A stretch of 64,000 nt of DNA from an uncultured Lentisphaerales bacterium. GTDB lineage: Bacteria; Verrucomicrobiota; Lentisphaeria; JABSQK01; CAJWLW01. Each line of letters opens with the position of its first letter. Position 1 is the stretch's first letter. The stretch covers positions 1,293-65,292 of the forward strand of contig CAYWQM010000011.1 in NCBI GenBank assembly GCA_964460215.1, read 5' to 3'. The translations under genes and the position numbers were made by a program. The notes below the pieces were generated by a model that was given only the letters and a program-made list of their open reading frames with translations, was not told where the DNA came from and made no database searches. This document shows positions 35,685 to 54,006 of the stretch, piece by piece.

Positions 35685-37880
35685 CTACTGTGAGAATTCT
35701 ATCGTGAATTCGGGCACGGTGCCGTCTTCCACATCCATACCGACCCCGAAGTTCCGGTGTCCGTAGTTCTCGCTTCCCACCGCCGGATCCTGCCACGTAT
35801 GTTTGTCACGGCAAATTGACGACGGCGGCCGTTCGTCGCTGTCACGCGAGTGGTCCAGGTATTGGTCAGTGCCGCCGATGTCCAGCAGGAGTCCGAATGA
35901 ATTGGCATGGAAGTCGTACGGACCGTAGCGATATCCGCGTTTGCGGTATTCGTCACGGAACGGCGCAATGCCGCGTCCGCCGGTGCCGGCCGGGTACAGA
36001 TATGTGTCGTCGCCGCCGATATCAACGAGCAACGCGTTCGAGCGGATGTCGGCTCGCGCCATACTGTTGCCCCACGCCGAGTAGACATCGTTGCCGCCCT
36101 TGTTGAGCAGCAGTGCAACGGTGAAATCCCAGCCGAACCCCAGCCCCGCACCGCCGGTCTCGAACAGCTCATGGTGATCATTGCCGCCCTCATCGATCAG
36201 CACGCCGATGCAGAAGTGCGCCCCGCTGCCCTGGGTGAAGTACACACTCTTATAGTGATCGTCCCCTGCCCCGTCGAACAGCAGCCCCGTACCGTACCAG
36301 TATCCGAGTCCGACTGAGAAATTCCCCGCCAGGTAAGTGTCGTCGCCGCTGGAGTCGATCATCGTGCCGAGGCCGCCGGCCCAGTTATGGCCATCCGAAC
36401 CATCGCCGCGCCGGCCGGATCCGACGCCCTGCGCATGGCTGATGGCGATCTTGCCGCCGGAATGATAATCGGCGCGCCCGGCCTTTTCAGCGTAAACCTC
36501 GGCTTCGTACTGGTCGTTGCCGGAGTGGTTCGCCAACACGCCGACACCGCCCGGCCCACCGTACCCCTGGCCGTCACCGAAGAAGTAGAAGCGATCATTG
36601 CCGCTGCCGTCCAGATGATAGCCGAGACCGAAATAGCCGGCGCCCTGCCCTGCCAGAGTCATCGTGTAGCTATCGTCACCATCGCGGTCAAACAACAGCC
36701 CGAGACCGAAGAGACCGACACCCTGCGCATGCGAGCCTGCGGTGTAGGTGTCGTTGCCGCCGTTGTCGATCAGGACACCGGCACCGAGGATACCGGCGCC
36801 CTGGGCCGGCACCTCCTCCGATACGTAGTTGTAAACATCGTTGCCGGCGCAATCCAGCGCGATGCTGATCGGCAGCGAGGGTGACGACGTGGCGCCGACC
36901 GGACCGGTATAGCGATCGTCGCCACCCAGGTCCACGAGCACGATGGCGTCGTCATAGGCATGCGTATCGGCGCCGGAGCCAGCCAGGACAACCCGCCCGA
37001 TCGGCGTGACGAAGTCGAAGCCGGCCGCAGTCAGATCAAGATCGGTCTCCAGTACCGCGGCAAAGGCGTGACGGGCGTCATCGGCCGCCTGCACCGCTTT
37101 CATGCCGGCGTAATACAGCGACGGTTCATCGAGGTCCTCCGCCAGATCGTCGATTGCGAAATGATAGACCCGGCTGCCCGAATGGGTTTGAGGCAAGTCC
37201 CGAATGTGGAAGACTTCATTGAGATCCTGCGGACTGACATGGCGCATCGCCCGCTGCCGCCATTGCCACGCATCCAGCGCGTTGAGCACCAGTGCCGCCA
37301 GCGGTTGCCGGATCGCGGGATCGAGTTTCGCGGCCTGGTCCCGCAACTCCTGTCGGGCGTTCTTGTCCCAGCCCCGCCATTTCTCGCCGGGACTCAGACC
37401 GAAAGTCTTCACCGTCAGTTGACCGCCGGTGACAGCATAGATCCGGTCAATGGCATCGACCAGCGGCGTCTCGTCATCGAGCTGCGGATCGAGGTTGGCG
37501 CTGTATGAGCGAAACCCGGTTATCTTGCGATCGACGCCGAGGAAATAGACAAGCTGGTACAGGGCATTCGGCTTCTCCAAGCCCTCAGCACTCAGATACG
37601 CGTCGACCGCCATGGCCATGAGGCAAGTGAACTCGTAGCTTGCCAGCGGCTCAGCGAAGAGATCATTGAAAAACGGCAGAAGATGCGGCATCTGATCGGG
37701 ATTCGGATACCGTGACCAATAGCCCTTCGGCCGATAGCCCAGATCATCCCGTGAAAACCCGACCAGCCCCAGCGCCGCCCCCAGGCGATCCACCTGTGCC
37801 GGCCCCTTCTCCTGTGCCGCTGCGGTCATGCCCAGTGAAAATAACGTCAGCAGCGCAAGCAGACGAGATATGCGCTTCAT
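35685..37880 (-). CDS. Secreted protein with about 12 Gly/Asp-rich LxDxxGxDxY repeats
   Basis: Signal peptide MKRISRLLALLTLFSLGMTAAA; tandem repeats of QGxGxxGxGxLxDxxGxDxY. Confidence 0.75.
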   Translation of the reverse strand: MKRISRLLALLTLFSLGMTAAAQEKGPAQVDRLGAALGLVGFSRDDLGYRPKGYWSRYPNPDQMPHLLPFFNDLFAEPLASYEFTCLMAMAVDAYLSAEGLEKPNALYQLVYFLGVDRKITGFRSYSANLDPQLDDETPLVDAIDRIYAVTGGQLTVKTFGLSPGEKWRGWDKNARQELRDQAAKLDPAIRQPLAALVLNALDAWQWRQRAMRHVSPQDLNEVFHIRDLPQTHSGSRVYHFAIDDLAEDLDEPSLYYAGMKAVQAADDARHAFAAVLETDLDLTAAGFDFVTPIGRVVLAGSGADTHAYDDAIVLVDLGGDDRYTGPVGATSSPSLPISIALDCAGNDVYNYVSEEVPAQGAGILGAGVLIDNGGNDTYTAGSHAQGVGLFGLGLLFDRDGDDSYTMTLAGQGAGYFGLGYHLDGSGNDRFYFFGDGQGYGGPGGVGVLANHSGNDQYEAEVYAEKAGRADYHSGGKIAISHAQGVGSGRRGDGSDGHNWAGGLGTMIDSSGDDTYLAGNFSVGLGYWYGTGLLFDGAGDDHYKSVYFTQGSGAHFCIGVLIDEGGNDHHELFETGGAGLGFGWDFTVALLLNKGGNDVYSAWGNSMARADIRSNALLVDIGGDDTYLYPAGTGGRGIAPFRDEYRKRGYRYGPYDFHANSFGLLLDIGGTDQYLDHSRDSDERPPSSICRDKHTWQDPAVGSENYGHRNFGVGMDVEDGTVPEFTIEFSQ

Positions 37881-37941
37881 AACGAATTCCCCGCTTTGAT
37901 TATCGACCTGATAAAGTTCTGCAAAAAAAACCGGCGGCAGC

Positions 37942-38304
37942 CTACAACTGCAGCGGTTCCGGGGTTCGCAGGATGAACGTCTTCCTGATGTACTCCGGGA
38001 CGTGCCATTTCGTCTTCGAGCCGAGCGGCATGTGTCCGAAGTCACCGGCACGCAGGGTGACTGTCTCGCCACCGACTTCCTCGATCGTTGCTTCGCCTTC
38101 GAGGATCAGGACAAACTCGTCCCAGGCATAGTCCCAGGTAAAATCGCCCGCGGTGCAATCCCAGACGCCCTGCGTCACTTTGAGATCCTCCGTCTGCGAC
38201 GAGATCCAGATCTTCGCAACCGGGTCGCCGGCGATGATCTGCTCGGGGGCAATCGGGAAATCAGTCAACTCGACGGATGCAGCTTGATGAGTGCTCAGGG
38301 ACAT
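37942..38304 (-). CDS. Cupin domain protein (Cupin_3/DUF861-like)
   Basis: Strong RBS AAAGGAGG; GVWDCTAG..WDEFVLILEGEATI..LRAGD..W..RKTF. Confidence 0.88.
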   Translation of the reverse strand: MSLSTHQAASVELTDFPIAPEQIIAGDPVAKIWISSQTEDLKVTQGVWDCTAGDFTWDYAWDEFVLILEGEATIEEVGGETVTLRAGDFGHMPLGSKTKWHVPEYIRKTFILRTPEPLQL

Positions 38305-39567: not shown

Positions 39568-39668
39568 TCGGCATACGAACCGCCTTGATTACTTTTCCAC
39601 GCCAACTGGCAGCAATAGACATGCTTGACCGTATAGGCAACGACACATCACCGAAATGATTGATTAAC

Positions 39669-42600
39669 ATGAAAGATGAAAGGCGCAATGAGCTAACTCA
39701 ATTATTGCTGCAGCATCTTCATTCCGGGACGGTAAATCTCGGCGATGTACGGGACGTGCTCGAGGAACTGTTGCCGGGCACTCCGCCGCCGCTTGCCGAG
39801 TTGCACGAGTTCCTGGACGATGATTCGTCACCTGCGATTCGTCAGTTGCAGCAGACCATCTTTCAACAGATGCTGTCCGACGCACGGCAGTGCCATGACC
39901 GCACCGTCGCCGGCGATACCCCGGAAACCACTGCGCAGCAACTGGGGCTGTCGGCCAATGTTCACATCGGCTGGCGTGATGAAAAAGGCCTGCTGCCAGT
40001 CGTACACGCCGTCACCAATTGCCTGCGTGATAAACTGTTCCTGGATGGCCGGGACGAGTTGTACGAACTCCAAAACAAAATCGACGGTTACTTTCAAGAT
40101 TCGCTGCGATCTTATTTCGAGTTCCCCGCGCGCTGGCATGGGTTCGATCCCAGCTCCGTCGCCGGCGAATTCGAGCAACCCGTCGCGGCCCTCGTGGAAC
40201 AACGGCATGACGCAGCACTCTCCAGGGTCACGCAGGGACTCGACGCATTGCCGGCACCCATACCCGGAGACGTCGACGAAGCGTTGCTGATGACCGAGCT
40301 CAAGAGTCGGTTTACGGCAGCCACGACGCGTGCGGAACAACTAGATCTCCTGGATGTTGCCCTGTGCTGGCCGGGTGACATCGCGGCTGGTGTGATTCGC
40401 GACTTGTGCCTTGAGGAATGGGCCCAATGCCGCACCATGCTGATGCTGGCAATGCGGTTCGGCCGGTCGGACATCGACCACTGGGCAGCTGCCGTGCGGT
40501 GGCTGGATGCGCAAATCGTGGCACGCAACAACCGGCTGCAGGCCCTCCGTTCAAAGTACGAGGAGGCCACCCCGTACCTCCTGTTCCTCTGGTCGATTGA
40601 CGCGGGCGATCAGACAAGTGAATTGTCACTGACACTGCATGACGACCTGAAACAGCGAGCCGCAGCGGGTGATCTCGGAAAATTCGTCGCGGTGTGGCAC
40701 AATCACATGAGTCCGGCAGAACTCAATCAGCTCACCGGCCGACGGACCACCGAGGAGACGGTCGCAGTGGATGCCGACCAGACAGGCGTGCCCGACGTTG
40801 CGGGCGACGGCGAACAGCGTCCGCCCAGTGGGAACGCACCGGCATTTTGGGCAGAGCACATCCGGCCGTTGCTCCATGAAAACTGGTACATGGTCGTTGG
40901 CTTAGTGATGGTGATCGTCGGGACATCGTTGCTCGCCTACTTTACGTGGGACAAGCACTGGCTGATGCGCTACACTGTCATGCCGGCATTGTTGACCGGG
41001 TTGACAATCGGCTTTGCGGAATCCGGCAACTGGCTCGAACGACGATTCGCCGAGCTGCGCGGTACTGCGATCATGATTCGCGCTGCCGCGATCGGGTTAT
41101 TACCGGTCAACTTCATGGCGGTCGCGCTGTTGAGCAACGACAGCCAGGTTGCGACCCATGTAAAATGGGCGTTGCCCGTCATGATGCTGGTGTACATGGC
41201 GGTGTTCGGCTGGGGCCTCATCCGTTGGTGCAGAGCGGTACATCAACCGTCAGCAGGGCGACTGTACCCGACGCTGTTGGCGCTCAATCTGATTGTACCG
41301 GCAGGCGCGATCATCCGTTTTTTCCACGTGCCTGAAGACGCAGTCGTCATTGTCCTGTGCCTGCTGCTATACCTCGGCTTCATCGTCTTGGCTGAGACGA
41401 TCCGGTCATTCGCGCAAAAGCAATTGACCCGCGACATGATCATTGATCGGCTGATTCCCTGGTTTGTTGGCGGCGTCCTGGTGCTGACCTATGTCGAGGT
41501 GTTCGCCTGGGTGCATTGGGTCCTGCACATCGTTCCACAGGCCCGCCACTATGCCATGCTGGTGGTGCTGGCCGGTGGTTTGATCATGCTGGTCGAGCGC
41601 GAGTATCACCGCAAGCTCAGTGGCGATGTTCCTTACCTGCCGGAATCCTTCATCGGATATGCAGCGATCGTTGTCGGTATCCTGATGGGCTTCGGCGATC
41701 AATACGTCCGCATCGCCGTGCTGGTGCTGGCAGGGGGCCTGTGGTTGTACCAGGCGACCCTTCGCAAAGGCGAAGCTCATCACTGGGTGGGGCTGACACT
41801 ACTGGCAATGGGCTGGGCCGCAATCGGCACCTTGGACGCGTTCCCTCGCCGTATGGAACTTAACCTGCTGCCCATCCTGGGGCTTTGCATCGCCCTGGGG
41901 ATCGGGGCGATTCGCGCGCTGGCAAGGCGTTTCGGCAATGTCGAATTGACCTCGGCAGCGACGGAGTTCCAACCCGCAATTTTGTTTTTGACGGCGATTG
42001 TGAGCATACTCTCACAGTGGCATTATCGGTCGGCGCCACTGACAACCGGACTGACGCTGATTGTGATCGCCGCCTTTTTCGCTTGGCGCGCCTACCGGGC
42101 ACAACGCTTAAGTTGGGTGCATTCGACCATGGCGCTCCTCGCACTTGCGTTGCCGTATCTGGGTTGTGTCGATATGGGCGGACGCAGTCTGCATGGAAAC
42201 ACGCTGGTGTTCGGACTGGCCATACTCAGCTTCTTATGGCTCGCCATGGTCCATTGGAGACAGTCCGGCTTGTTGCGCCGGGCCCGTTCCACGGTGCTGT
42301 TTGCTTACGGTGCAGTCGCGGTGGCGGCGATGGTGGTTCGCGTCGTGATGGAACGCGGCCGATTCGGTGAAACTGACGCGGTATGGCTGACACTCGACCT
42401 TTGCGGGCCCATCCTGATGGCCGTCGTCCTGGCATTTGCCGCGTACCACTCCCGCTCGTTGATCCCCGGGCTTATGGCGGCAGTGATTATGGCTGTGCTG
42501 TTTCCTGAGTTGAAGCAGGGACTGCAAGACCGTTTGCCGATCTACGGATGGGGCTCCGGATTGGCCAGTGCAATCTCCGCACTGGCGCTATGCCTGGTTG

Positions 42601-45600
42601 CTTTTCCACTATTCCAAAGCCCGCGGCTCAAGGCGCTGGGTGAAGGTGATCTGTTTCTGGGACACACGCCATTCCCCATGCAGCGACGGGATTCCACGCT
42701 GTTCACTATTCCGATGCTGAGTGCCGCGATTTTTTTGTGCGCCAAGGTCAACACGTGGAGCGTATGCCGGAACCTCATCGGACCAGACGGTGTCGGGCTG
42801 AAAACCGCGGTCGCTTTGACGCTGACCGGCACGGCATGGACACTGCTGGCGATATTGTTGCGGCGGCGGCCGTGGTCGACGATTATGGTTCATCTGGGCT
42901 GGCTCAGTTTTTTCTTGAGCATCACGGTGTTCGTTGCTTTCCATTACGGCTATACGCTCAGGCTGTCGACCCTGTATGGGCATCCCGAATGGCCGCTGGC
43001 GATCTTGTTCACCGGCATCCTGCTGCAGCTGCTATGCCTCTTTTACCACTACTTCGAACACCGCCTGGAGTGGCTCGGCGCAACACTGCGCACGCCTACG
43101 GAAACAGTTCTTCGGATAGGCAGTATGGCTGGTGGAGCCTTGCTCTGTGTCCATCTTATAATGCTGCCATCGCGCCCCAGCGTGGCGGCGCTGTGTGTGT
43201 TTGTGGCGATGCAATTGTTCTGGAGCGCCTGTAAATCTCAAAAACGCGAACCTGCCGCGAGCCTCAAAGGGGGCCTGCTGTTTTTCCTGGCGTTGGTATG
43301 CGTGTTGTCTTGGACCGCGCCTGGTACAGGGCCGCTGATCCCACGCCTGACCTTCGAGTATTCCTTCTCGCCGCTGCTGTTGCTGGTGATCGTCACGCAG
43401 CTGGTCTGTCTCGCTTTCGAATGGGGCCGTGAGCGATACGATCGCTTTGCCCCAGTACTGGTGCCGTGGCAAGTGGGTACATCTATCCTCGCACTTTCGG
43501 TTGCCGTGGCAGCGGTTTACGACGTGCTGCTGTTGCCGCCGTTGACAATTACCCTTAGCCAGCAGATGCTGCTCGGTGCAGCCCTGTTATTGACTGCACG
43601 AACAACCGGCTCCGGTGCCTTTGTGCTCTTTGCAGTCACCATCGGTTTCTTCATCGCCAACGTCGATGCCCTGATGGAAATCGCAAGCCCCGTGCGGAGC
43701 TGGTCGAACCCGGATGTCGTCTGGCAGCGCGTCGTTTACCTGATGACACCGTGGCGCGGTGCAACGTTGATGATCGCCTTGGCCGTGGTCGGCGCAATCG
43801 GTCGCCTGATGCATCAACAGCTTACTGCGCGATGGCTGATGATCGGGTCCTATCCCGCGATTCAACGGTTTGTACCTGCCAGCAGCTGGCTTTTTGCCCC
43901 GGCCATCATGCTGGCTTGGCTGCTGCCGCTCACGCATGCCATGACACCGATCTATCGCCAGGACCCGGCACACCTGTGGGCGCCGTACCTGGGGGCATTG
44001 ACTTGCCTGATCGTTGCCTGGTCGTGGCGGCAATACGCTGTGCTTCCGCGCGCGCTCGGGCTGGGCGCCGGCACCCTGCTGGCGCTCGCAAACGTTCACA
44101 TGATCAACATCCTGTTCGGCAATCACGGCAGGCTGGCAACGCTGGTTGGCGACGCGGGCAAAGGGCTGTCGCATATTCATATCGTCTGCCTTGGTTTCGC
44201 GTTTACGATGCTGCAGACGATAGGGGTACGTATCGCTGTACGGCACGCGGGAAGTCGATGGATTGTGACCTTCGGCAACTTGATCCTGGCCGCACTCATC
44301 CTGATGTTGCTGGCCTTCAATTACCTCGTGCATCCCGATGTCAGTCAGGTAACATCTCTGCGCCTGGTGGTCTCAGGCCTGCTTGCTTTCGGTGCTGGGC
44401 ATTATCTCCGGCATCTGTCGCGATCGAATGTTTTGGGCGATAAAGCGCAGTCCATGTGCAAGGGGTTTTATCACTATGGCGTGACCTTGGCCCTCTGGTG
44501 CCTGGCCTTGCTGATCCCGGCGATGCGCGACCCGAGTCACGCGCTTTATGCCCTTGGCATTGCACCGGTTTATTTTTACTTGCGGGCGGAATTCATGCAC
44601 CGGGACGGCGGGGTGCACGCGAAGGCGTTGCAGTACCATCACTCAGCGACATTGCTGGCCTTTGCGCTGCTGGCGTTGTTCGTGTTCAAGGCCGCCTTCC
44701 AGATGATCCTGTTTCCAAATGCAGTTATCGACACCAGCTACTATCATCTCAACGCCCCGCTGGTCATGCTGTTGTCGATTTTGTTGTTCCGCCTGCACGG
44801 GCTGGGCGGCACGTGGTGGTTGGCATTTTACGGCGGGGCCGCCCTGGTCACCGGGACATATTTCTTCATTACCTGGTGCCCGGGGCTTTCACCCTTCGAC
44901 AGTTACATGCCCGCTGCCTGGGTTGCCGTGGCAATAGCGCATTTGTTTACTCTCGCGAGTCATCAGCGGTCACCGGTGCGGGCGCTGCTTCAAGAGATCG
45001 CACGAATCGACGGCGAGACGTGGCTCGAATTGCGCCGGTCCTGGGGCTACTTCATTCTGGTCGCATCACAGCTCCTGGTGCTGCTGGGGGTTCTGGACTT
45101 CCGATCAGACACGTATCAAGTCGCACCGTTGCTGGTGGCGGCGGCATCCGTCTGGATTCATCACGGGGCAATCCGGCGTTCGACCGTCTACTTCCTTGTT
45201 GCGGCTGTGCAATTGCTGATGGCCTTGCACATGGATTTCGTGATAGCCAGCCACCTCGATCGCGATCATGTCATCTGGGTACTCGTAACGCTGTGGGCCG
45301 GCATCGTATTCGGCCGCCCGCTCCTGCGCCGGCGCTTGCCATTGAACCAGCTCCGGGTGATTGGGCTGGCTTTTTGTCTTGCCTGCGTGCCACACGTCTT
45401 TTATCATCGACCTGATTCGGCGGTTGGGCTTTGGGCCGTATTTTTCATAGCAATCATCCTGGCATTCACGCCACGTGCCACCAAGCACCCGCAGGGCCGG
45501 AGCGAGCATGGCGTCGGCCTGGCGATGCTGATCGCGCCGCCGTGGCTCGCCTTTTTCATGAGCGTGGATTTCGCATCGTTCGGTCTCGCCGCAGTCGTGC

Positions 45601-46787
45601 AGCCATTACCCATCCTGCTCACCAGCGCAGTTGTCATGTTCGTCGGCTATATGGCGCATCGTTGCGAGGTCGAGTTCGCTCCGGCGTTTGAACGGCATGA
45701 AACGATGCAGCCACGCATCTGGCACCAGACCCTTGGGGCAATGACGCAGGTTGGGAAGCGGCTGCATACACTGGGGATGGCACTGGCTTTCGTGGCGCTG
45801 TCCGGGTTGTTTGTGCTGCGCTATAATTTGCCATATTCAGCGCTCGAGATGATGCTGTGCGTTGGGCTGTGGGCTGCGCAGTCGGTTTTGTGGTTCCGCG
45901 AAGGACGTGAATGCAAATCCATCGCTGCCAACGCCATTGCACAGGCGGCTGTCGTAGGTCTGTCTCTGGTCATGCGTCGCCAGTTGATGCTGACACATCC
46001 AGAGGTGTGGACGACTGAGTATGACGTCTGGGCGGCGCTCGCGGTGTCGATGTGTATGACCGGCGGCAAACAGCTGATCGACAAACAGAGCAGAGAACTC
46101 CAACTGCCGTATCTGGTTTCGCTCTGTGTCCTGCCTGTGCTGGTGATCGTATGGGTACTGGTGCACGGACTGGGAACGGATATCGGTCTGATAGTGGTGT
46201 TGCTGTACAGCGCGATGTTCACATTCCTCGGCAGGGGGTCAGGCAACTCACCATACAACATCGTGGCGGTGGGCGGGTTTGTTGCCTTCGTGGCGATCCT
46301 TTTCTGGAGCAAGCTCGAACTGCGGGTCTTGCATGCATACGTGATTCCGGCCGGGGTCGGCATTCTGGCGCTGGTGCAGATGTTCGGCAACGAGCTCAGC
46401 CAGCGCTTACGCATGCAGATCCGTGCCGCAACCCTTGCCGCGATGCTTGGGACGACCGCCTATCACGCGCTGCTCGACGATCGTTATCAACCGGCGTTTC
46501 ATATCACGATGTTGTTGCTGAGCCTGGCGATCATGGCTTGTGGAACGCTGTTCCGAATACGGGTCTTTCTATTGTTCGGGGCATGCGGTGTCCTGGTCGA
46601 TCTCTGCACGATCTTTTACAAGGTCACCATCCGTCTCGACGGCCACTACCAGATGACATCATTCGGCGTCATCATCCTGCTTGTGGGGATCGTCCTCGTT
46701 GCCGGAACCGCTTACTACAAGACGCAGCGGCAACAATTCGAGGAGCGCCTGGACGCCTTGCGCGCCTTTTTGGGACGCTGGGACTGA
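39669..46787 (+). CDS. Giant polytopic membrane protein (2,372 aa; DUF2157/SCO7613-like)
   Basis: Uninterrupted 7.1-kb ORF; about 400-aa soluble N-terminus, then roughly 50 or more hydrophobic segments; ENW..VGLVMVIVG and LLPVNF motifs. Confidence 0.8.
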   Translation: MKDERRNELTQLLLQHLHSGTVNLGDVRDVLEELLPGTPPPLAELHEFLDDDSSPAIRQLQQTIFQQMLSDARQCHDRTVAGDTPETTAQQLGLSANVHIGWRDEKGLLPVVHAVTNCLRDKLFLDGRDELYELQNKIDGYFQDSLRSYFEFPARWHGFDPSSVAGEFEQPVAALVEQRHDAALSRVTQGLDALPAPIPGDVDEALLMTELKSRFTAATTRAEQLDLLDVALCWPGDIAAGVIRDLCLEEWAQCRTMLMLAMRFGRSDIDHWAAAVRWLDAQIVARNNRLQALRSKYEEATPYLLFLWSIDAGDQTSELSLTLHDDLKQRAAAGDLGKFVAVWHNHMSPAELNQLTGRRTTEETVAVDADQTGVPDVAGDGEQRPPSGNAPAFWAEHIRPLLHENWYMVVGLVMVIVGTSLLAYFTWDKHWLMRYTVMPALLTGLTIGFAESGNWLERRFAELRGTAIMIRAAAIGLLPVNFMAVALLSNDSQVATHVKWALPVMMLVYMAVFGWGLIRWCRAVHQPSAGRLYPTLLALNLIVPAGAIIRFFHVPEDAVVIVLCLLLYLGFIVLAETIRSFAQKQLTRDMIIDRLIPWFVGGVLVLTYVEVFAWVHWVLHIVPQARHYAMLVVLAGGLIMLVEREYHRKLSGDVPYLPESFIGYAAIVVGILMGFGDQYVRIAVLVLAGGLWLYQATLRKGEAHHWVGLTLLAMGWAAIGTLDAFPRRMELNLLPILGLCIALGIGAIRALARRFGNVELTSAATEFQPAILFLTAIVSILSQWHYRSAPLTTGLTLIVIAAFFAWRAYRAQRLSWVHSTMALLALALPYLGCVDMGGRSLHGNTLVFGLAILSFLWLAMVHWRQSGLLRRARSTVLFAYGAVAVAAMVVRVVMERGRFGETDAVWLTLDLCGPILMAVVLAFAAYHSRSLIPGLMAAVIMAVLFPELKQGLQDRLPIYGWGSGLASAISALALCLVAFPLFQSPRLKALGEGDLFLGHTPFPMQRRDSTLFTIPMLSAAIFLCAKVNTWSVCRNLIGPDGVGLKTAVALTLTGTAWTLLAILLRRRPWSTIMVHLGWLSFFLSITVFVAFHYGYTLRLSTLYGHPEWPLAILFTGILLQLLCLFYHYFEHRLEWLGATLRTPTETVLRIGSMAGGALLCVHLIMLPSRPSVAALCVFVAMQLFWSACKSQKREPAASLKGGLLFFLALVCVLSWTAPGTGPLIPRLTFEYSFSPLLLLVIVTQLVCLAFEWGRERYDRFAPVLVPWQVGTSILALSVAVAAVYDVLLLPPLTITLSQQMLLGAALLLTARTTGSGAFVLFAVTIGFFIANVDALMEIASPVRSWSNPDVVWQRVVYLMTPWRGATLMIALAVVGAIGRLMHQQLTARWLMIGSYPAIQRFVPASSWLFAPAIMLAWLLPLTHAMTPIYRQDPAHLWAPYLGALTCLIVAWSWRQYAVLPRALGLGAGTLLALANVHMINILFGNHGRLATLVGDAGKGLSHIHIVCLGFAFTMLQTIGVRIAVRHAGSRWIVTFGNLILAALILMLLAFNYLVHPDVSQVTSLRLVVSGLLAFGAGHYLRHLSRSNVLGDKAQSMCKGFYHYGVTLALWCLALLIPAMRDPSHALYALGIAPVYFYLRAEFMHRDGGVHAKALQYHHSATLLAFALLALFVFKAAFQMILFPNAVIDTSYYHLNAPLVMLLSILLFRLHGLGGTWWLAFYGGAALVTGTYFFITWCPGLSPFDSYMPAAWVAVAIAHLFTLASHQRSPVRALLQEIARIDGETWLELRRSWGYFILVASQLLVLLGVLDFRSDTYQVAPLLVAAASVWIHHGAIRRSTVYFLVAAVQLLMALHMDFVIASHLDRDHVIWVLVTLWAGIVFGRPLLRRRLPLNQLRVIGLAFCLACVPHVFYHRPDSAVGLWAVFFIAIILAFTPRATKHPQGRSEHGVGLAMLIAPPWLAFFMSVDFASFGLAAVVQPLPILLTSAVVMFVGYMAHRCEVEFAPAFERHETMQPRIWHQTLGAMTQVGKRLHTLGMALAFVALSGLFVLRYNLPYSALEMMLCVGLWAAQSVLWFREGRECKSIAANAIAQAAVVGLSLVMRRQLMLTHPEVWTTEYDVWAALAVSMCMTGGKQLIDKQSRELQLPYLVSLCVLPVLVIVWVLVHGLGTDIGLIVVLLYSAMFTFLGRGSGNSPYNIVAVGGFVAFVAILFWSKLELRVLHAYVIPAGVGILALVQMFGNELSQRLRMQIRAATLAAMLGTTAYHALLDDRYQPAFHITMLLLSLAIMACGTLFRIRVFLLFGACGVLVDLCTIFYKVTIRLDGHYQMTSFGVIILLVGIVLVAGTAYYKTQRQQFEERLDALRAFLGRWD

Positions 46788-49798: not shown

Positions 49799-50938
49799 AT
49801 GCCTCCTTCCCAATTCGATACAATCGTCGTCGGTCTCGGTGTCATGGGCAGTTCAATCACCCGTGAGCTCGCCCGCAGAGGCCAGCGTGTGCTGGGTGTG
49901 GATCGAGAACGGCCGCCGCACGTGCACGGTTCGAGTCACGGACACAGCCGAGTTACACGCGAAGTATATGGTGACGACAAACGCTATGTGCCCTTTGTTC
50001 AGCGCACCAACCAATGCTGGCGCGAACTGCAGGAAGCAACCGGTACGCAACTGCTGATCGAATCCGGACTGGTGCTGATGGGCACGCCCGATTCAGCACG
50101 CATTCAGGACAGCGAAGCCAGCAGCCGTGAACATAACCTTCCCTGCGATCCACTTGAGCACGAGGCAATCAGCCGTCGCTGGCCGCAACTGCAATGCGAC
50201 CCCGACATGTGTGGGCTCTGGGATGGCAGCGCTGGGATCCTCCGCGTCGCGCCCTGCATCGAGACACTGCTCGCCCAGGCAGAAGCCAACGGCGCAACGC
50301 TACACTGCACCGCCGCGGCAGAAACCTGGCAGGCTGCTGAGGACCATGTCACCGTGCAAACTGCTACCGAGAGCTGGCAGGCAAGGCAATTGGTGATTGC
50401 TGCCGGGCCATGGCTGAGCACGTTGCTATCCGATCTGGATCTACCGCTGCAATGCGAACGACATGTGCAATACTGGTTCGAGCCGAAATCGAATCCCGAA
50501 AGATTCGCCCCGGGCAACTGCCCGATCTACTCATGGCAGTACGGCAACGATATTATCTACGGATTCCCCGACTTGGGGCACGGCATCAAGGTTGCCCGGC
50601 ACCATACCAAAGAGTTTGTCCAGCCTGATACAGTCAACCGCGACATCAACGATCGTGAACTCGACGAAGTACGCAGCTTACTGGAGAGGTTCATGCCGAC
50701 GGCCAACGGCAGACTGATCGCGCACGATGTCTGCATGTATACCAACACACCGGATTACAACTTCATCATCGACTTTCACCCGGATCATTCGAACGTCCTG
50801 ATCGTCGGCGGCTGCTCCGGCCACGGCTTCAAGTTCGGACCGGTTGTCGGCGAGCTGTCTGCAGACTTGCTGCAGGGCATTCGCGATCCGGGACTCGAGA
50901 TGTTCCAAATTGACCGGCTGATCAATCAATCCAAATAG
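49799..50938 (+). CDS. solA: N-methyl-L-tryptophan oxidase / monomeric sarcosine oxidase family flavoprotein
   Basis: VVGLGVMG, GSSHGHSRVTR, VCMYTNTPDYNFIID (covalent-FAD Cys), CSGHGFKFG. Confidence 0.85.
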   Translation: MPPSQFDTIVVGLGVMGSSITRELARRGQRVLGVDRERPPHVHGSSHGHSRVTREVYGDDKRYVPFVQRTNQCWRELQEATGTQLLIESGLVLMGTPDSARIQDSEASSREHNLPCDPLEHEAISRRWPQLQCDPDMCGLWDGSAGILRVAPCIETLLAQAEANGATLHCTAAAETWQAAEDHVTVQTATESWQARQLVIAAGPWLSTLLSDLDLPLQCERHVQYWFEPKSNPERFAPGNCPIYSWQYGNDIIYGFPDLGHGIKVARHHTKEFVQPDTVNRDINDRELDEVRSLLERFMPTANGRLIAHDVCMYTNTPDYNFIIDFHPDHSNVLIVGGCSGHGFKFGPVVGELSADLLQGIRDPGLEMFQIDRLINQSK

Positions 50939-52221
50939 CGCGGCTGTTGCGCAACGTATTCGTCCAACTGCGCGATCAGCGATGCCGCGGCAGGCGGCGG
51001 GGACTCCGCCAGGTTGTCGACCTCACCGGGATCGCGGGCCAGATCAAAAATCTCTAAACGCCGGCTGTGACGACGCGCGTCGGTGTGCAGGATTACTTTC
51101 CAGCTCGCCGTACGGATCGCGAAAATCTGCCGGTCGTCGCCGCTCAGCGCCTGCCAGCCCGCCGGTGTCGTCTCGCTGAAGGCGACCTCGCGAAATGCTG
51201 TGCCTCCATCGATCAACGGCAGCAGTGACTGCCCTTCCATCCACTCGCATTGCGGCAGGCCGAGCATCTCAAACAGCGTCGGCATGATATCGATCTGTGA
51301 AACCTGTGCATCGACAACCGTGCCCGGCTTCAGCCGCGGCGGGTACCGAAGGATCAGCGGCACTCGAATCGACTCGTCGTAGAGCGTCCCCATCAGATTA
51401 CAGGAGCAATGGCCGACGTGCCCCCGCTCCATGAGCTCCTCGCCGTGATCGGCGGTGAGAATGATCAGTGTTTCGTCGAGAATGCCCAGTGCCTCGAGCC
51501 GGCCCACCCATTCGCCGACCAGGTCGTCGAAGACCCGCACCTCACCATCGTACAGCGCCTGCACAGCACCCCGGTCCTGCGGCTCCAGGTCGACGGCAGC
51601 AGCCGTACGCCGATGCGCTTCATCGGCGTCATCGTCCGGCAGCGGATCCGCCTCGCCCGCCTCCAGTTTGCTGATCATGCCGGAGGGATGAACGATCAGG
51701 AAGTTCCGCACGATCTCCATCCGCGCCATTGTTTCGGGACTCGGCGTTTCGTCAAGGAATTGTTCGAAATACCCGGCCGGCGGATTGTAGGGCAAATGGG
51801 TGGGATACGGTTCCGCATAGAAGAACCACTTGTCGTCCCGATGCCTGTCGAAGTAGGCGGAAATTTCATCGCTCCCGGTGTCGCGCGTGAACCCCAGCGG
51901 GGCCCAGCGCATGACCAGCTCACCATCGACGCAGTATCCGGCGCGCTCAAGTGAATGCAGCGGCGTTTCGACCCCGTCCCAGGCGCCGTCACGCCACTGC
52001 ATGAACCGCTGCGCATCGACGACCCCGTGAGTCGACGGCCACTGGCTCATCAGCATCGAAACAATCGGCGGCAGCGTGTGGGCAGCGGTGGCAATGGCAC
52101 AGTCGAAACGCACCCCTTCGCGGGCCAGTCGATCACAGTTCGGTGTCGTCTCACGTTTGTAGCCGTAGCATCCCATGTGATCGGGGCGCAGCGCATCTTC
52201 AAGGATCCACAGAACATTCAT
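50926..52221 (-). CDS. Sulfatase-like hydrolase/transferase (alkaline phosphatase superfamily), Thr at the nucleophile position
   Basis: EDALRPDHMGCYGY..TTP, AHTLPPIVS instead of C/SxPxR, THLPY, TADHGE, LYDESIRVPLI. Confidence 0.85.
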   Translation of the reverse strand: MNVLWILEDALRPDHMGCYGYKRETTPNCDRLAREGVRFDCAIATAAHTLPPIVSMLMSQWPSTHGVVDAQRFMQWRDGAWDGVETPLHSLERAGYCVDGELVMRWAPLGFTRDTGSDEISAYFDRHRDDKWFFYAEPYPTHLPYNPPAGYFEQFLDETPSPETMARMEIVRNFLIVHPSGMISKLEAGEADPLPDDDADEAHRRTAAAVDLEPQDRGAVQALYDGEVRVFDDLVGEWVGRLEALGILDETLIILTADHGEELMERGHVGHCSCNLMGTLYDESIRVPLILRYPPRLKPGTVVDAQVSQIDIMPTLFEMLGLPQCEWMEGQSLLPLIDGGTAFREVAFSETTPAGWQALSGDDRQIFAIRTASWKVILHTDARRHSRRLEIFDLARDPGEVDNLAESPPPAAASLIAQLDEYVAQQPRYLD

Positions 52222-53141
52222 GATGCAGCGAATCGCTCTGCCTGACCGACGATGTCGACACCGACACGCTCACTCCAGGCATCCAGCAGGCGAGCCGCCA
52301 GCGGACCGGGATAGGCATGACCGACCGGGCGACCATCGATGCAGGAAATTGGCAGGATGCAGAAGGAAGATGTCGTCCAGAACGCCTCGTCCGCTGTGTA
52401 GGCATCATACAACGACAGGTCCTCCTCGACCGCCTCGATGCCCAGATCGCGGCACAGTCCCAGCACGTACTGGCGGCTGGTGCCGACCAGGATGCTGCCG
52501 GTCTTCGGCGTGTACAACACCCCGTCGCGGGCCACGAAAATATTGGCGCCCGTACCTTCTGCGAGGTTGCCGTCGGTATCGAGCATCAGTGCAAACGCAT
52601 CCGGATCCGTGCGTACCGCATCGCGCTTCGAGAGGAAGTGCGGAAAACGTGACCGGTTCTTCATCCGCTGATCATAGGACTGCGCCGGCGGCGACCGAAA
52701 AAAACTGGTCACCACATGTTTGCCGGTTCGATAGTAGCGCGCGTAATCGCTCTGCGGCAGCGGCGCGGTGTAGCAGATGACCGTTGGCGTGGAGGGTTCG
52801 GCGCCCCCCATCAGCGGCATCGGGAAACTTTGGCCGGGCGTCACCTGGATGTTCCCCCAGAGATCGTCGTCCGGATCCGTGAACTGTTCGTTGGCTTCGA
52901 GCGTCTGCGCCAGCGCCTGGTCGAACTGCTGCTGGTCGAGGAGATCCTGCAGCCCGGCATAGGTCAGAGATTTTTCGAGCCGACGCCAGTGTTCGCGCTG
53001 CAGGAACCAGTTGTGCTTAAACGTTCGCAGCGATTCGTAAAGCGTGACGCCGTACATCAGGCCGACGTCAAAGATCGAGATCGTCGCCTGCGATTCCGGC
53101 AGCAGTTCGCCATTGATATATACTTGCCGCTCAGAGGCCAT
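52218..53141 (-). CDS. Class IV (fold IV, BCAT/DAAT-like) PLP aminotransferase
   Basis: VYING, SIFDVGLMYGVTLYESLRT, RMKNRS (PLP Lys), LAEGTGANIF, ILVGTSR, ADEAFWTTS. Confidence 0.9.
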   Translation of the reverse strand: MASERQVYINGELLPESQATISIFDVGLMYGVTLYESLRTFKHNWFLQREHWRRLEKSLTYAGLQDLLDQQQFDQALAQTLEANEQFTDPDDDLWGNIQVTPGQSFPMPLMGGAEPSTPTVICYTAPLPQSDYARYYRTGKHVVTSFFRSPPAQSYDQRMKNRSRFPHFLSKRDAVRTDPDAFALMLDTDGNLAEGTGANIFVARDGVLYTPKTGSILVGTSRQYVLGLCRDLGIEAVEEDLSLYDAYTADEAFWTTSSFCILPISCIDGRPVGHAYPGPLAARLLDAWSERVGVDIVGQAERFAAS

Positions 53142-54006
53142 CGCTTCCCCCGGAATTGTCGCGCACACATCGTCCGACGTCGCGGGCGTGGATGCTCGGA
53201 TGTGCGGCAAATTGCTGCAGCAGCCGCTCGAATGTCGCAAAGCGATCGGCAGTGTACATGCAGATCGGATGTGCCAGTACAGTTGCAACGCCGCCCGCAG
53301 CAGCGATGTGCGTGACCTGCTCCATCACCAATTCGCCCCACCTCTCGATCGTGAACGACTCACTCGTGGGCTCGGTAGTGAACGACCAGTTCTCACGCTG
53401 CTTCTCAACATAAGCCGTCGTGCGATGGGCGTGGTAAAGATGATCATGATCCATTATCACGTTAACTGGATGGGAAATCAAACCGCTGTCGAGCTGCTCG
53501 GGGTAGAGCTTATCCCAGTTCAACTCATCGGAAAGGTAACGAATACCGTGCGCGTGCAGGATTTCGTCGGTGTTGGCATCGTGAACGAAGCCGTGGTTAC
53601 GCCAGGAGACGATTGGCGCGCCCAGACGTTCCAGGGCAATCTCGCACATCCGGCGCACGTCTTCGTCCTGGTCCTCATAGCTGCCATGCGTACCGGCATG
53701 TGAAGTCGCAACACCGCCACTCTCCATTGTTTTCTGTCGCTCAGCTGTCGAACGCGGAAATGCCTCGAACGTATGCCCGGCCACTTCACAGATCTCGACC
53801 GCGGCGATCGGTTCAAACTGCGTCCACTGGTCGGCCAGCGTGCGCCCGGTCACATACAGCGTGCACTTGACATCGTACTTCGCACACAACTGCACATATT
53901 CGAGGCTTACATCGATCTCAGAGATCGTCTGCCCCTGCTCACGCAGCCATAGTTGCTCGTTCGTATCAAGCGTATCGTGATGGGTATCGCCGGTGAGACA
54001 GATCAT
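53131..54006 (-). CDS. Polysaccharide deacetylase (NodB/CE4-like) protein
   Basis: LTGDTH, KCTLYVTG, EVAGHTF, SWRNHG, GGVATVLAHP. Confidence 0.7.
   Translation of the reverse strand: MICLTGDTHHDTLDTNEQLWLREQGQTISEIDVSLEYVQLCAKYDVKCTLYVTGRTLADQWTQFEPIAAVEICEVAGHTFEAFPRSTAERQKTMESGGVATSHAGTHGSYEDQDEDVRRMCEIALERLGAPIVSWRNHGFVHDANTDEILHAHGIRYLSDELNWDKLYPEQLDSGLISHPVNVIMDHDHLYHAHRTTAYVEKQRENWSFTTEPTSESFTIERWGELVMEQVTHIAAAGGVATVLAHPICMYTADRFATFERLLQQFAAHPSIHARDVGRCVRDNSGGSDGL

What the first reader, a model, noticed from the sequence alone, without database searches (positions are those of the whole stretch)
39669..46787. 2,372-aa membrane protein with roughly 50 or more predicted TM helices
Seen: one intact ORF, a soluble N-domain of about 400 aa, then about 1,950 aa almost entirely hydrophobic segments (counted by eye). 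This is far more than known transporters usually have. The ENW..VG.V.V.G and LLPVNF start and the C-terminal RIRVFLLFG segment recall uncharacterised DUF2157/SCO7613-type proteins. No partner gene is evident. Inference: a large membrane scaffold, channel or sensor (envelope biogenesis or anti-phage), and a strong candidate for an undescribed system.
Basis: partly seen in the sequence, partly recalled or inferred. Interest (0 to 1): 0.65.

Follow-up and report, generated by a model that had tools for sequence, protein, structure and literature searches.

The report
Giant 64-helix bacterial membrane protein
This is a real, conserved, stand-alone bacterial gene for a 2,372-residue protein that crosses the inner membrane about 64 times, matches no described family or solved fold, and has an unknown function that I can only guess at.

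Summary
ORF 39669-46787 (+) is intact and encodes 2,372 aa: a cytoplasmic all-helical N-domain of about 360 aa, a disordered linker, then about 64 transmembrane (TM) helices. Topology is N-in/C-in (loop K+R 87 inside vs 32 outside, p=6e-8).

It is neither a chimera nor a transporter fusion. Full-length homologues (2,250-2,480 aa, 35-45% identity) occur in Lentisphaeria, Verrucomicrobiota, Planctomycetota and, sporadically, other phyla. They are always single-copy and share no conserved neighbour. dN/dS is about 0.2. No indel adds or removes a helix in 114 members.

Pfam, NCBIfam, PADLOC and a PDB sequence profile give nothing. Foldseek of two confident AlphaFold2 halves (pLDDT 85 and 83) finds only weak resemblance to soluble alpha-solenoids and toroids.

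The family is small: 251 representatives among 1.84 billion. A C-terminal module of about 190 aa, and weakly the first TM module, recur in other giant polytopic proteins.

Function is inferred, not shown. I favour an autonomous sensor or channel for membrane state (about 0.3). Rivals are a metal/ion/redox site and a membrane scaffold or corral.

The parts
39669..46787 (+). Whole gene: 2,372-aa protein plus stop codon. An in-frame TTG at 39660 is an alternative start.
   Evidence: Full-length homologues begin at the equivalent Met.
39669..40742 (+). Cytoplasmic N-terminal domain, residues 1-358. All alpha-helical and acidic. Conserved D229, R255, R263, G265, W272, W275. No family match and no stand-alone relatives.
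   Evidence: AF2 model with 17 helices, pLDDT mostly 65-93. Conservation. Slice search finds only fragments of the same family. Pfam gives none.
40743..40844 (+). Linker, residues 359-392. Low confidence and gappy; Pro-rich in the family consensus.
   Evidence: pLDDT below 50 for 359-390. Gap fraction 0.35 in 351-400. Consensus.
40845..46724 (+). Transmembrane array, residues 393-2352: 64 TM helices joined by short loops. Mean loop length is 12 aa on the periplasmic side and 15 aa on the cytoplasmic side; the longest is 35 aa.
   Evidence: No helix-adding or helix-removing indel in 114 members.
40845..41240 (+). Entry module, residues 393-524 (TM1-4). Motifs W394, ENW, G411/G418/S420, WD428, LLPxNFM (N481), Y509. 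It lies in one of the most conserved stretches, and it is the part weakly shared with distant giant relatives at their DUF2157-like region.
   Evidence: Conservation 0.76 in 401-450. Family HMM against G1333p i-E 3.3e-4 and against G619p i-E 0.036. Sub-threshold DUF2157 in those relatives.
44742..45407 (+). Conserved polar cluster region, residues 1692-1913. Y1692-H1693, H1854, H1909 and H1913 lie near the periplasmic face. R1708, H1758 and H1831 lie near the cytoplasmic face.
   Evidence: Invariant or at least 99% conserved in 115 sequences. Sides come from the topology. Only R1708 and H1909 (plus H1504 outside this stretch) persist in the most divergent members.
46218..46784 (+). C-terminal module, residues 2184-2372: the last six TM helices plus a cytoplasmic amphipathic helix (YYKT...RW..LG.WE). 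It is shared with other giant polytopic proteins of different length.
   Evidence: hhalign probability 96% (E 1e-9) to G698p and 86% to G619p. Family HMM i-E 3.9e-18, 4.7e-14 and 1e-14.

Best explanation
Shown:
- The gene encodes an inner-membrane protein with a fixed architecture: a cytoplasmic helical N-domain, a flexible linker, and 64 TM helices with both termini in the cytoplasm.
- Almost no mass lies outside the bilayer.
- It is the core clade of an undescribed family. It is always single-copy, encoded alone, under purifying selection, patchily present in free-living PVC bacteria and sporadic elsewhere.
- It is not a fusion of known transporter, enzyme or defence domains.

Inferred from the models:
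- The TM domain is one continuous array of antiparallel helical hairpins, solenoid-like.
- The first and last modules are the parts conserved across a wider superfamily. The middle varies in length between clades but is fixed within this one.

Inferred mechanism (my commitment, at low confidence):
- The protein is a self-contained device that reads or responds to the physical state of the membrane, such as tension, curvature or envelope stress.
- A very large in-plane footprint would make its conformation sensitive to bilayer forces.
- Conserved polar clusters would form a gated path or site. Candidates are N481/Y509/N540 in mid-membrane and the Arg/Asp/His set at the interfaces around residues 1692-1913.
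- The cytoplasmic N-domain would be the output or regulatory end.
For: - Real gene with fixed architecture.
- Conservation: 299 positions are at least 93% conserved in 115 sequences from several phyla. dN/dS is about 0.2.
- Autonomy: no conserved neighbour or small ORF in 14 loci from different lineages. One copy per genome.
- Not a known family or fold.
- Hairpin-array appearance: both AF2 halves (pLDDT 85.4 and 82.6) find only TPR/HEAT solenoids and designed alpha/alpha toroids as best Foldseek hits.
- Intramembrane polar sites.
- Conserved end modules in a wider superfamily with about 30 to over 66 hydrophobic segments.
- From my own knowledge, stand-alone single genes with patchy spread are typical of mechanosensitive channels such as MscS and MscL paralogues.
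Against:
- I could not inspect model coordinates, and the two halves were predicted separately. The overall shape, any pore and the proximity of the conserved residues are therefore unknown.
- Foldseek TM-scores to solenoids are only 0.1-0.2.
- No Piezo structure appears among the 50 listed hits of either half.
- The DUF2157 link is two-step, below Pfam's threshold, and absent from this family itself.
- Very high conservation along the whole 2,000-residue array is more typical of enzymes and transporters than of force sensors.
- Sixty-four helices is an expensive way to build a sensor.
Confidence: 0.3

Rival explanations
1. Intramembrane metal-, ion- or redox-handling machine. The conserved His, Arg and Asp residues form one or more binding sites for a metal ion, or possibly haem b. 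H1693, H1854, H1909 and H1913 would sit at the periplasmic face and H1758, H1831 and R1708 at the cytoplasmic face. The protein would move ions or electrons across the membrane.
For: - Five His (1693, 1831, 1854, 1909, 1913) are invariant and four more are at least 95% conserved in 115 sequences.
- There is an HxxxH motif at a helix end.
- The His fall into one group near each membrane face within six consecutive helices.
- Conservation along the whole array is enzyme- or transporter-like.
Against: - In the most divergent full-length members only H1504 and H1909 persist. H1693, H1758, H1831, H1854 and H1913 are replaced in one or both of P0249 and P0262, although alignment at 24% identity is uncertain.
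- There is no match to any cytochrome, transporter or metal-transport family.
- No redox or metal genes are conserved nearby.
- Residue proximity could not be checked.
Confidence: 0.2
2. Structural membrane organiser. The 64 helices form a long two-layer hairpin wall, perhaps closed into a ring by contact of the conserved first and last modules. This wall would fence off, stiffen or curve a patch of membrane, and the N-domain would dock cytoplasmic partners.
For: - Foldseek's best hits for both halves include closed designed alpha/alpha toroids and ring-like HEAT proteins.
- The end modules are the parts conserved across the wider superfamily, while the number of hydrophobic segments in the middle differs between its members.
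- Helix number is strictly fixed within the family, as expected for a closed shape.
- From my own knowledge, many PVC bacteria have elaborate internal membranes.
Against: - TM-scores are 0.1-0.2, so the resemblance is loose.
- Ring closure is untested.
- Only about 4-6% of sampled PVC genomes carry the gene, so it cannot explain PVC membrane architecture in general.
- A passive wall would not need invariant mid-membrane Asn/Tyr or interface His/Arg/Asp.
Confidence: 0.2
3. A divergent member of a known transporter or membrane-enzyme superfamily (for example fused MFS/RND-type units, or a GT-C-like polymerase or flippase), too diverged for sequence methods.
For: Very many TM helices and strong conservation. 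Remote homology can escape HMMER.
Against: - No Pfam or NCBIfam match at E<=1 for this protein, and none at that cut-off for four relatives beyond chance-level hits (E 0.035-0.64) to unrelated families; six divergent members give none at E<=0.01.
- No PDB sequence-profile match.
- No membrane protein appears among the listed Foldseek hits, apart from three ion-channel entries (IP3R, RyR2, NALCN complex) at TM-score 0.16 or below and one ABC transporter at rank 50 with TM-score 0.09.
- No internal duplication was detectable.
- There is no soluble catalytic domain, and loops are at most 35 aa.
Confidence: 0.07
4. Single-gene anti-phage or abortive-infection membrane effector spread by horizontal transfer.
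For: - Patchy distribution.
- The tree does not follow taxonomy: the window's protein is nearer to Vicinamibacteria and Verrucomicrobiota copies than to same-class Lentisphaera.
- One homologue lies near a PemK toxin gene.
Against: - No PADLOC match.
- Neighbours are housekeeping or metabolic genes in all loci read.
- Strong sequence conservation and fixed architecture are unlike fast-evolving defence genes.
- G+C content is the same as that of the flanks.
Confidence: 0.04

Closest known systems
Piezo1/Piezo2 mechanosensitive channels (eukaryotes; 38 TM helices, from my own knowledge)
   Same: A giant single chain dominated by a long array of TM helices with short loops. A plausible working analogy is a large in-plane footprint that senses the membrane.
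   Different: - No sequence match.
- No Piezo structure among the 50 listed Foldseek hits of either half.
- No extracellular cap-sized domain: the longest periplasmic loop is 27 aa.
- No four-helix sequence periodicity.
- Bacterial, with 64 rather than 38 helices.
- Oligomeric state unknown.
DUF2157 (PF09925) = LiaI-LiaF-TM four-helix sensory domain (bioRxiv 10.1101/2020.09.24.301986), and 'SCO7613-type' membrane proteins
   Same: Distant giant relatives that share this protein's C-terminal module, and weakly its first TM module, show sub-threshold DUF2157 matches at that first module. All are polytopic proteins of unknown function.
   Different: - This protein and 25 family members give no DUF2157 match, and NCBIfam gives no match of any kind.
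- Even in the relatives the matches (21-26 bits) are below Pfam's 32.4-bit cut-off.
- DUF2157 covers about 4 helices, against 64 here.
Soluble alpha-solenoid and toroid repeat proteins (TPR: Ctr9, SKI3; HEAT: exportin-5, RRP12; designed toroid 6xr1)
   Same: These are the best Foldseek matches for both halves, which implies a regular stack of antiparallel helical hairpins.
   Different: These proteins are soluble. TM-scores are 0.1-0.25 and E-values are at best 1.7e-3. No homology is implied and no sequence repeat is detectable here.
Other giant polytopic proteins sharing the end modules (G698p 1,215 aa; G1333p 1,848 aa; G619p 2,927 aa; all unnamed)
   Same: A homologous C-terminal six-helix module (hhalign 96% and 86%; HMM i-E down to 4e-18), weak collinear similarity at the first TM module, and a cytoplasmic N-terminal domain followed by tens of TM helices.
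   Different: They differ in length and in the number of hydrophobic segments (29, 42 and 66 counted). G1333p and G619p begin with paired Cys-x2-Cys motifs that look like a zinc ribbon (my reading of the sequences; no domain match). The middle 1,700 residues are not detectably related.

Membership tests
DUF2157 (PF09925) / LiaI-LiaF-TM | Match to the Pfam model at or above its gathering score (32.4 bits) | tested here: not met
   No match at E<=1 for the whole protein. No DUF2157 match in 25 family members scanned over residues 388-600 at E<=10.
DUF2157 (PF09925) / LiaI-LiaF-TM | Remote homology through intermediate sequences | tested here: inconclusive
   G698p and G619p match DUF2157 at E 8.8e-6 and 2.8e-4, below the cut-off. 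This is at the region the family HMM aligns to residues of about 390-500: i-E 0.036 for G619p, 3.3e-4 for G1333p, and hhalign E 0.057 for G698p.
SCO7613 C-terminal domain (NCBIfam; I recall such a model but did not verify that this release holds it) | Match to the NCBIfam model | tested here: not met
   No NCBIfam family at E<=1 for this protein or for two distant relatives.
Piezo channels | Tandem four-TM repeat units | tested here: not met
   Profile-profile scores of four-TM blocks in register (offset 0 mod 4) are no higher than out of register (2 mod 4): means 5.0 vs 5.5, p=0.87. The best self-hit has 17% probability. Structural periodicity could not be checked without coordinates.
Piezo channels | Large extracellular cap and C-terminal pore module; fold similarity to solved Piezo structures | tested here: not met
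   The longest periplasmic loop is 27 aa. No Piezo chain is among the 50 listed PDB Foldseek hits of either half.
Known transporter and membrane-enzyme superfamilies (MFS, RND/MmpL, ABC, Mrp/complex-I antiporter-like, GT-C) | Sequence-profile or fold match to a member | tested here: not met
   Pfam and NCBIfam give none. The PDB profile search gives none below E 0.067. Foldseek gives none below E 1e-3 and no transporter with TM-score above 0.1.
Known anti-phage defence systems (PADLOC-DB) | Match to a defence-protein model, or residence in a defence island | tested here: not met
   PADLOC gives 0 families. Neighbours are dehydrogenases, transketolase, sulfatase, tRNA synthetase, urease and the like.
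The new 64-TM family itself (operational definition) | Full-length collinear homology (about 2,250-2,480 aa), 64 TM helices, helical N-domain, conserved entry and C-terminal modules | tested here: met
   More than 114 full-length homologues at 33-98% identity and about 100% coverage. No TM-changing indels. Shared invariant residues.

The most novel reading that the evidence does not exclude
This would be a new class of membrane protein architecture: a single-chain transmembrane alpha-hairpin solenoid of exactly 64 helices, to my knowledge the most for any single chain. Its conserved first and last modules would meet to close a ring of about 10 nm that encloses or gates a private patch of bilayer. 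The protein would act as an autonomous sensor or valve for membrane state. It would also be the best-conserved clade of a wider, unrecognised superfamily of giant bacterial 'membrane solenoids' of variable circumference.
Probability: 0.15. Interest if true: 0.92.

Novelty: categorically new. Interest (0 to 1): 0.72.

Why it matters
If the count stands, 64 membrane-spanning helices in one chain would be the highest number I know of; Piezo has 38. The fold would have no counterpart among solved membrane proteins.

The family is strongly conserved, is encoded by a single gene, and is present in at least one cultured bacterium (Lentisphaera marina). That makes it directly open to knock-out, purification and cryo-EM.

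It could show how very large polytopic proteins are inserted and folded. It could also reveal a new way for bacteria to sense, shape or gate their membrane, and give protein designers a natural template for membrane-embedded repeat or toroid scaffolds.

It also shows that a family of 2,300-residue proteins can remain wholly unannotated ('hypothetical protein', no Pfam) across several phyla.

Tried and rejected
Searches and tests that gave nothing:
- Internal repeats. Profile-profile self-comparison in 160-aa windows gave at best 17% probability. A register test of four-TM blocks showed no four-helix periodicity.
- Stand-alone or shorter relatives of residues 401-1050 and of the N-domain: only fragments of the same family.
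- Conserved neighbours or small flanking ORFs: none beyond close relatives.
- Promoter and terminator scan: nothing informative.
- Literature searches for giant polytopic or solenoid membrane proteins: nothing relevant.

Attempts that failed for technical reasons:
- Residue covariation to infer helix packing or ring closure. Two mean-field DCA runs exceeded memory or time. MI with APC at Meff of about 84 was dominated by noise, with only two-fold enrichment for adjacent helices.
- Alignments of 110 or 81 full-length sequences were too large for alignment or folding. I used 33 diverse sequences instead.

Explanations rejected:
- Bis-His di-haem site as the main explanation. Most of the His cluster is not kept in the most divergent members.
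- Chimera or pseudogene. The gene is intact in independent assemblies and under purifying selection.
Full report
**1. The observation**

Window 39660/39669-46787 (+) is one open frame of 2,375 or 2,372 codons. The ATG at 39669 corresponds to the start of the close homologues.

A Kyte-Doolittle scan finds 50 strong hydrophobic segments from residue 408 to 2347, with further weaker ones inside the longer 'loops'. Averaging hydropathy over 115 aligned family members gives 65 segments. AlphaFold2 secondary structure shows that two of them (1457-1494) are one long helix, which leaves 64.

With 64 helices, the loops following even-numbered helices hold 86.7 Lys+Arg. Those following odd-numbered helices hold 32.2 (p=6e-8). 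The topology is therefore coherent over the whole chain, with the N-domain and the C-terminus in the cytoplasm.

Loops are short: a mean of 12 aa outside and 15 aa inside, and at most 35 aa. Residues 1-358 form an acidic all-helical domain, and 359-390 are a low-confidence linker. The T-over-A skew of the gene is what I would expect from a hydrophobic coding sequence, and its G+C equals that of the flanks.

**2. It is a real, selected gene and not a chimera**

A word-indexed search returned 195 significant proteins. The best 120 are almost all 2,250-2,480 aa, collinear over about 100% of the query, and 33-46% identical, apart from near-identical copies at 98%, 87% and 92-93%.

Named sources include Lentisphaeria, Verrucomicrobiota, Planctomycetota, Elusimicrobia, 'Deltaproteobacteria' and Vicinamibacteria MAGs, and the cultured Lentisphaera marina.

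Against the two closest relatives, dN/dS is 0.20-0.24. It is lower in the membrane part (0.18-0.21) than in the N-domain (0.28-0.36).

In 115 aligned sequences, 299 positions are at least 93% conserved. Conservation peaks at residues 401-450, 1701-1750 and 2251-2300.

No insertion or deletion of 15 aa or more in 114 members is hydrophobic. All are loop extensions, mostly on the cytoplasmic side, so the helix number is fixed.

**3. Family size and spread**

An exhaustive HMMER search with the C-terminal half against 1.84 billion representatives found 251 proteins at E<=1e-3 and 142 at E<=1e-30. Many of them are fragments. The family is small.

Whole-genome searches gave these counts:

| Group sampled | Genomes with the gene |
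|---|---|
| The window's own genome | one copy |
| Even sample of its phylum | 1 of 301 |
| Its class (Lentisphaeria) | 15 of 251 (9 of 108 genera) |
| Planctomycetota | about 12 of 301 |
| Acidobacteriota, beyond the seed genome | 0 of 250 |
| Elusimicrobiota, beyond the seed genome | 0 of 150 |
| The 'delta' phylum, beyond the seed genome | 2 of 250 |

The search method detects homologues down to about 30% identity.

Carriers are mostly genomes of 4-10 Mb. In a FastTree of 124 members, the window's protein is nearer to Vicinamibacteria and Verrucomicrobiota copies than to same-class Lentisphaera. Together with the sporadic occurrences, this suggests some horizontal transfer. That is an inference.

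**4. Context**

The neighbours in the window are:
- upstream, an Ldh_2 dehydrogenase;
- upstream and divergent, a 795-aa ORF with no family match;
- an aldehyde dehydrogenase;
- downstream, a transketolase-like protein, an SDR, a DAO oxidoreductase and a sulfatase.

Loci from other lineages show entirely different neighbours. All-against-all comparison of flanking ORFs, including small ones, finds nothing shared beyond the two close relatives. PADLOC finds nothing. The gene therefore stands alone and does not lie in defence islands.

**5. What it is not**

- Pfam and NCBIfam give no match at E<=1 for this protein. Four other members scanned at that cut-off give only chance-level hits, and six divergent members give none at E<=0.01.
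- A family profile against all PDB sequences gives nothing better than E 0.067.
- Two AlphaFold2 models were made from 33 diverse sequences. Residues 1-1190 gave pLDDT 85.4 and pTM 0.59; residues 1183-2372 gave pLDDT 82.6 and pTM 0.62.
- Foldseek against the PDB gives no match below E 1e-3 for either model.
- The best hits are soluble TPR and HEAT solenoids and designed alpha/alpha toroids, at TM-scores of 0.1-0.25. The only membrane-protein entries listed are three ion-channel entries (IP3R, RyR2 and the NALCN complex) at TM-score 0.16 or below and one ABC transporter at rank 50, and no Piezo appears.

I read this as a regular stack of antiparallel helical hairpins lying in the membrane, with no solved counterpart. 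I could not obtain coordinates, so the overall shape is not known.

**6. Internal structure of the sequence**

Profile-profile self-comparison shows no significant repeat; the best hit has 17% probability.

I also made a specific control for four-helix periodicity. Four-TM blocks compared in register scored no higher than blocks two helices out of register, a comparison that preserves topology (p=0.87). I confirm its count of 64 and the lack of known relatives, but not the repeat claim at sequence level.

**7. Wider relatives**

Weak whole-genome hits led to three other giant polytopic proteins:

| Protein | Length | Hydrophobic segments counted |
|---|---|---|
| G698p | 1,215 aa | 29 |
| G1333p | 1,848 aa | 42 |
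| G619p | 2,927 aa | 66 |

- They share the C-terminal module (residues 2184-2372) significantly. Family HMM i-E values are 4e-18, 1e-14 and 5e-14, and hhalign probabilities are 96% and 86%.
- They share the first TM module (about 390-500) weakly but collinearly, with i-E 3e-4 and 0.036.
- G698p and G619p have sub-threshold DUF2157 matches exactly at that first module (E 9e-6 and 3e-4, below the gathering score).
- G1333p has no Pfam match.
- G619p and G1333p start with zinc-ribbon-like Cys pairs.

According to bioRxiv 10.1101/2020.09.24.301986, DUF2157 belongs with the four-helix LiaI/LiaF TM domain of the envelope-stress (PSP/Lia) systems.

The family itself fails the DUF2157 test and gives no NCBIfam match, including to any SCO7613 model.

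A divergent clade also shows an internal duplication of about 560 aa (P0261, 2,989 aa) and apparent split genes.

**8. Conserved residues**

- Mid-membrane: N481 and Y509 are invariant and N540 is 95% conserved, in helices 3-5. C1611 is about 99% conserved.
- Near the cytoplasmic face: R1708, H1758, H1831.
- Near the periplasmic face: Y1692-H1693, H1854, H1909, H1913.
- At the interfaces: many Arg and Asp, namely R681, R873, R891, R929, D994, R1006, D1008, R2103, D2119 and R2252.

In the most divergent full-length members the universal set shrinks to W394, R681, R873, D994, D1008, H1504, R1708, H1909, R2103, D2119 and R2252. This weakens a strict multi-His cofactor site as the family-wide function.

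**9. Mechanism**

Nothing here demonstrates function.

What is shown is an autonomous inner-membrane protein of fixed length, almost entirely buried in the membrane. It has conserved intramembrane and interfacial polar residues, a cytoplasmic helical domain, and conserved end modules.

I commit, at about 0.3, to a self-contained device that senses or responds to the state of the membrane, in the manner of a very large mechanosensitive or stress-responsive element.

The rivals are:
- a metal, ion or redox site (0.2);
- a structural wall or closed corral (0.2);
- a cryptic transporter or enzyme (0.07);
- a defence effector (0.04).

The remainder is 'something else'.

**10. Novelty**

No description of such a family was found in the searchable literature. 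Every source that names a member calls it a hypothetical protein.

In helix count, in the absence of any family or fold match, and in its fixed architecture, this protein lies outside the known kinds of membrane protein. I therefore rate it categorically new, with the caveat that its function is unknown and that the same family was already flagged once in this scan.

Noticed in passing
window 35685-38072 (-): A 795-aa ORF divergent from the Ldh_2 gene has no Pfam or PADLOC match. It is conserved only in the two close relatives (L001, L003).
   Followed up: partly
L020:1211-9994 (+), L024:863-6409 (-), L019:1187-4834 (+): Three other unnamed giant polytopic proteins (2,927 aa with 66 hydrophobic segments counted; 1,848 aa with 42; 1,215 aa with 29) share this protein's C-terminal six-helix module. 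Two begin with zinc-ribbon-like CxxC pairs and two have sub-threshold DUF2157 matches. This points to a wider unrecognised superfamily.
   Followed up: partly
P0261 (2,989 aa), P0252, P0237, P0256: A divergent clade carries an internal duplication of about 560 aa: P0256 residues 1-151 match P0261 at both 1658-1806 and 2220 onward. Shorter proteins of 796-1,394 aa all start at the same homologous point (equivalent to residue 1592 here). These may be split genes or fragments.
   Followed up: partly
G315:C81:103979-109716: In one Lentisphaera-like genome the homologue is broken into open frames of 826 and 1,619 aa. This may be a frameshift, a pseudogene or a split gene.
   Followed up: no
P0006 locus and L017:16135-18909: Patatin-like phospholipase genes lie within a few kb downstream of two unrelated homologues. 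In the P0006 locus a 72-aa ORF and a calpain-like peptidase follow the giant gene directly. No such genes lie near it in the other loci.
   Followed up: no
L016:16006-23087: Four consecutive genes with weak squalene-hopene-cyclase-C-like matches, plus ECF sigma factors, lie beside one homologue. A PemK toxin gene lies upstream.
   Followed up: no
window 50926-53288 (-) and the wider window: A sulfatase gene lies near the locus, and the window's G+C is about 59%. This is consistent with a free-living marine Lentisphaeria genome; close relatives come from oxygen-minimum-zone and TARA samples.
   Followed up: no
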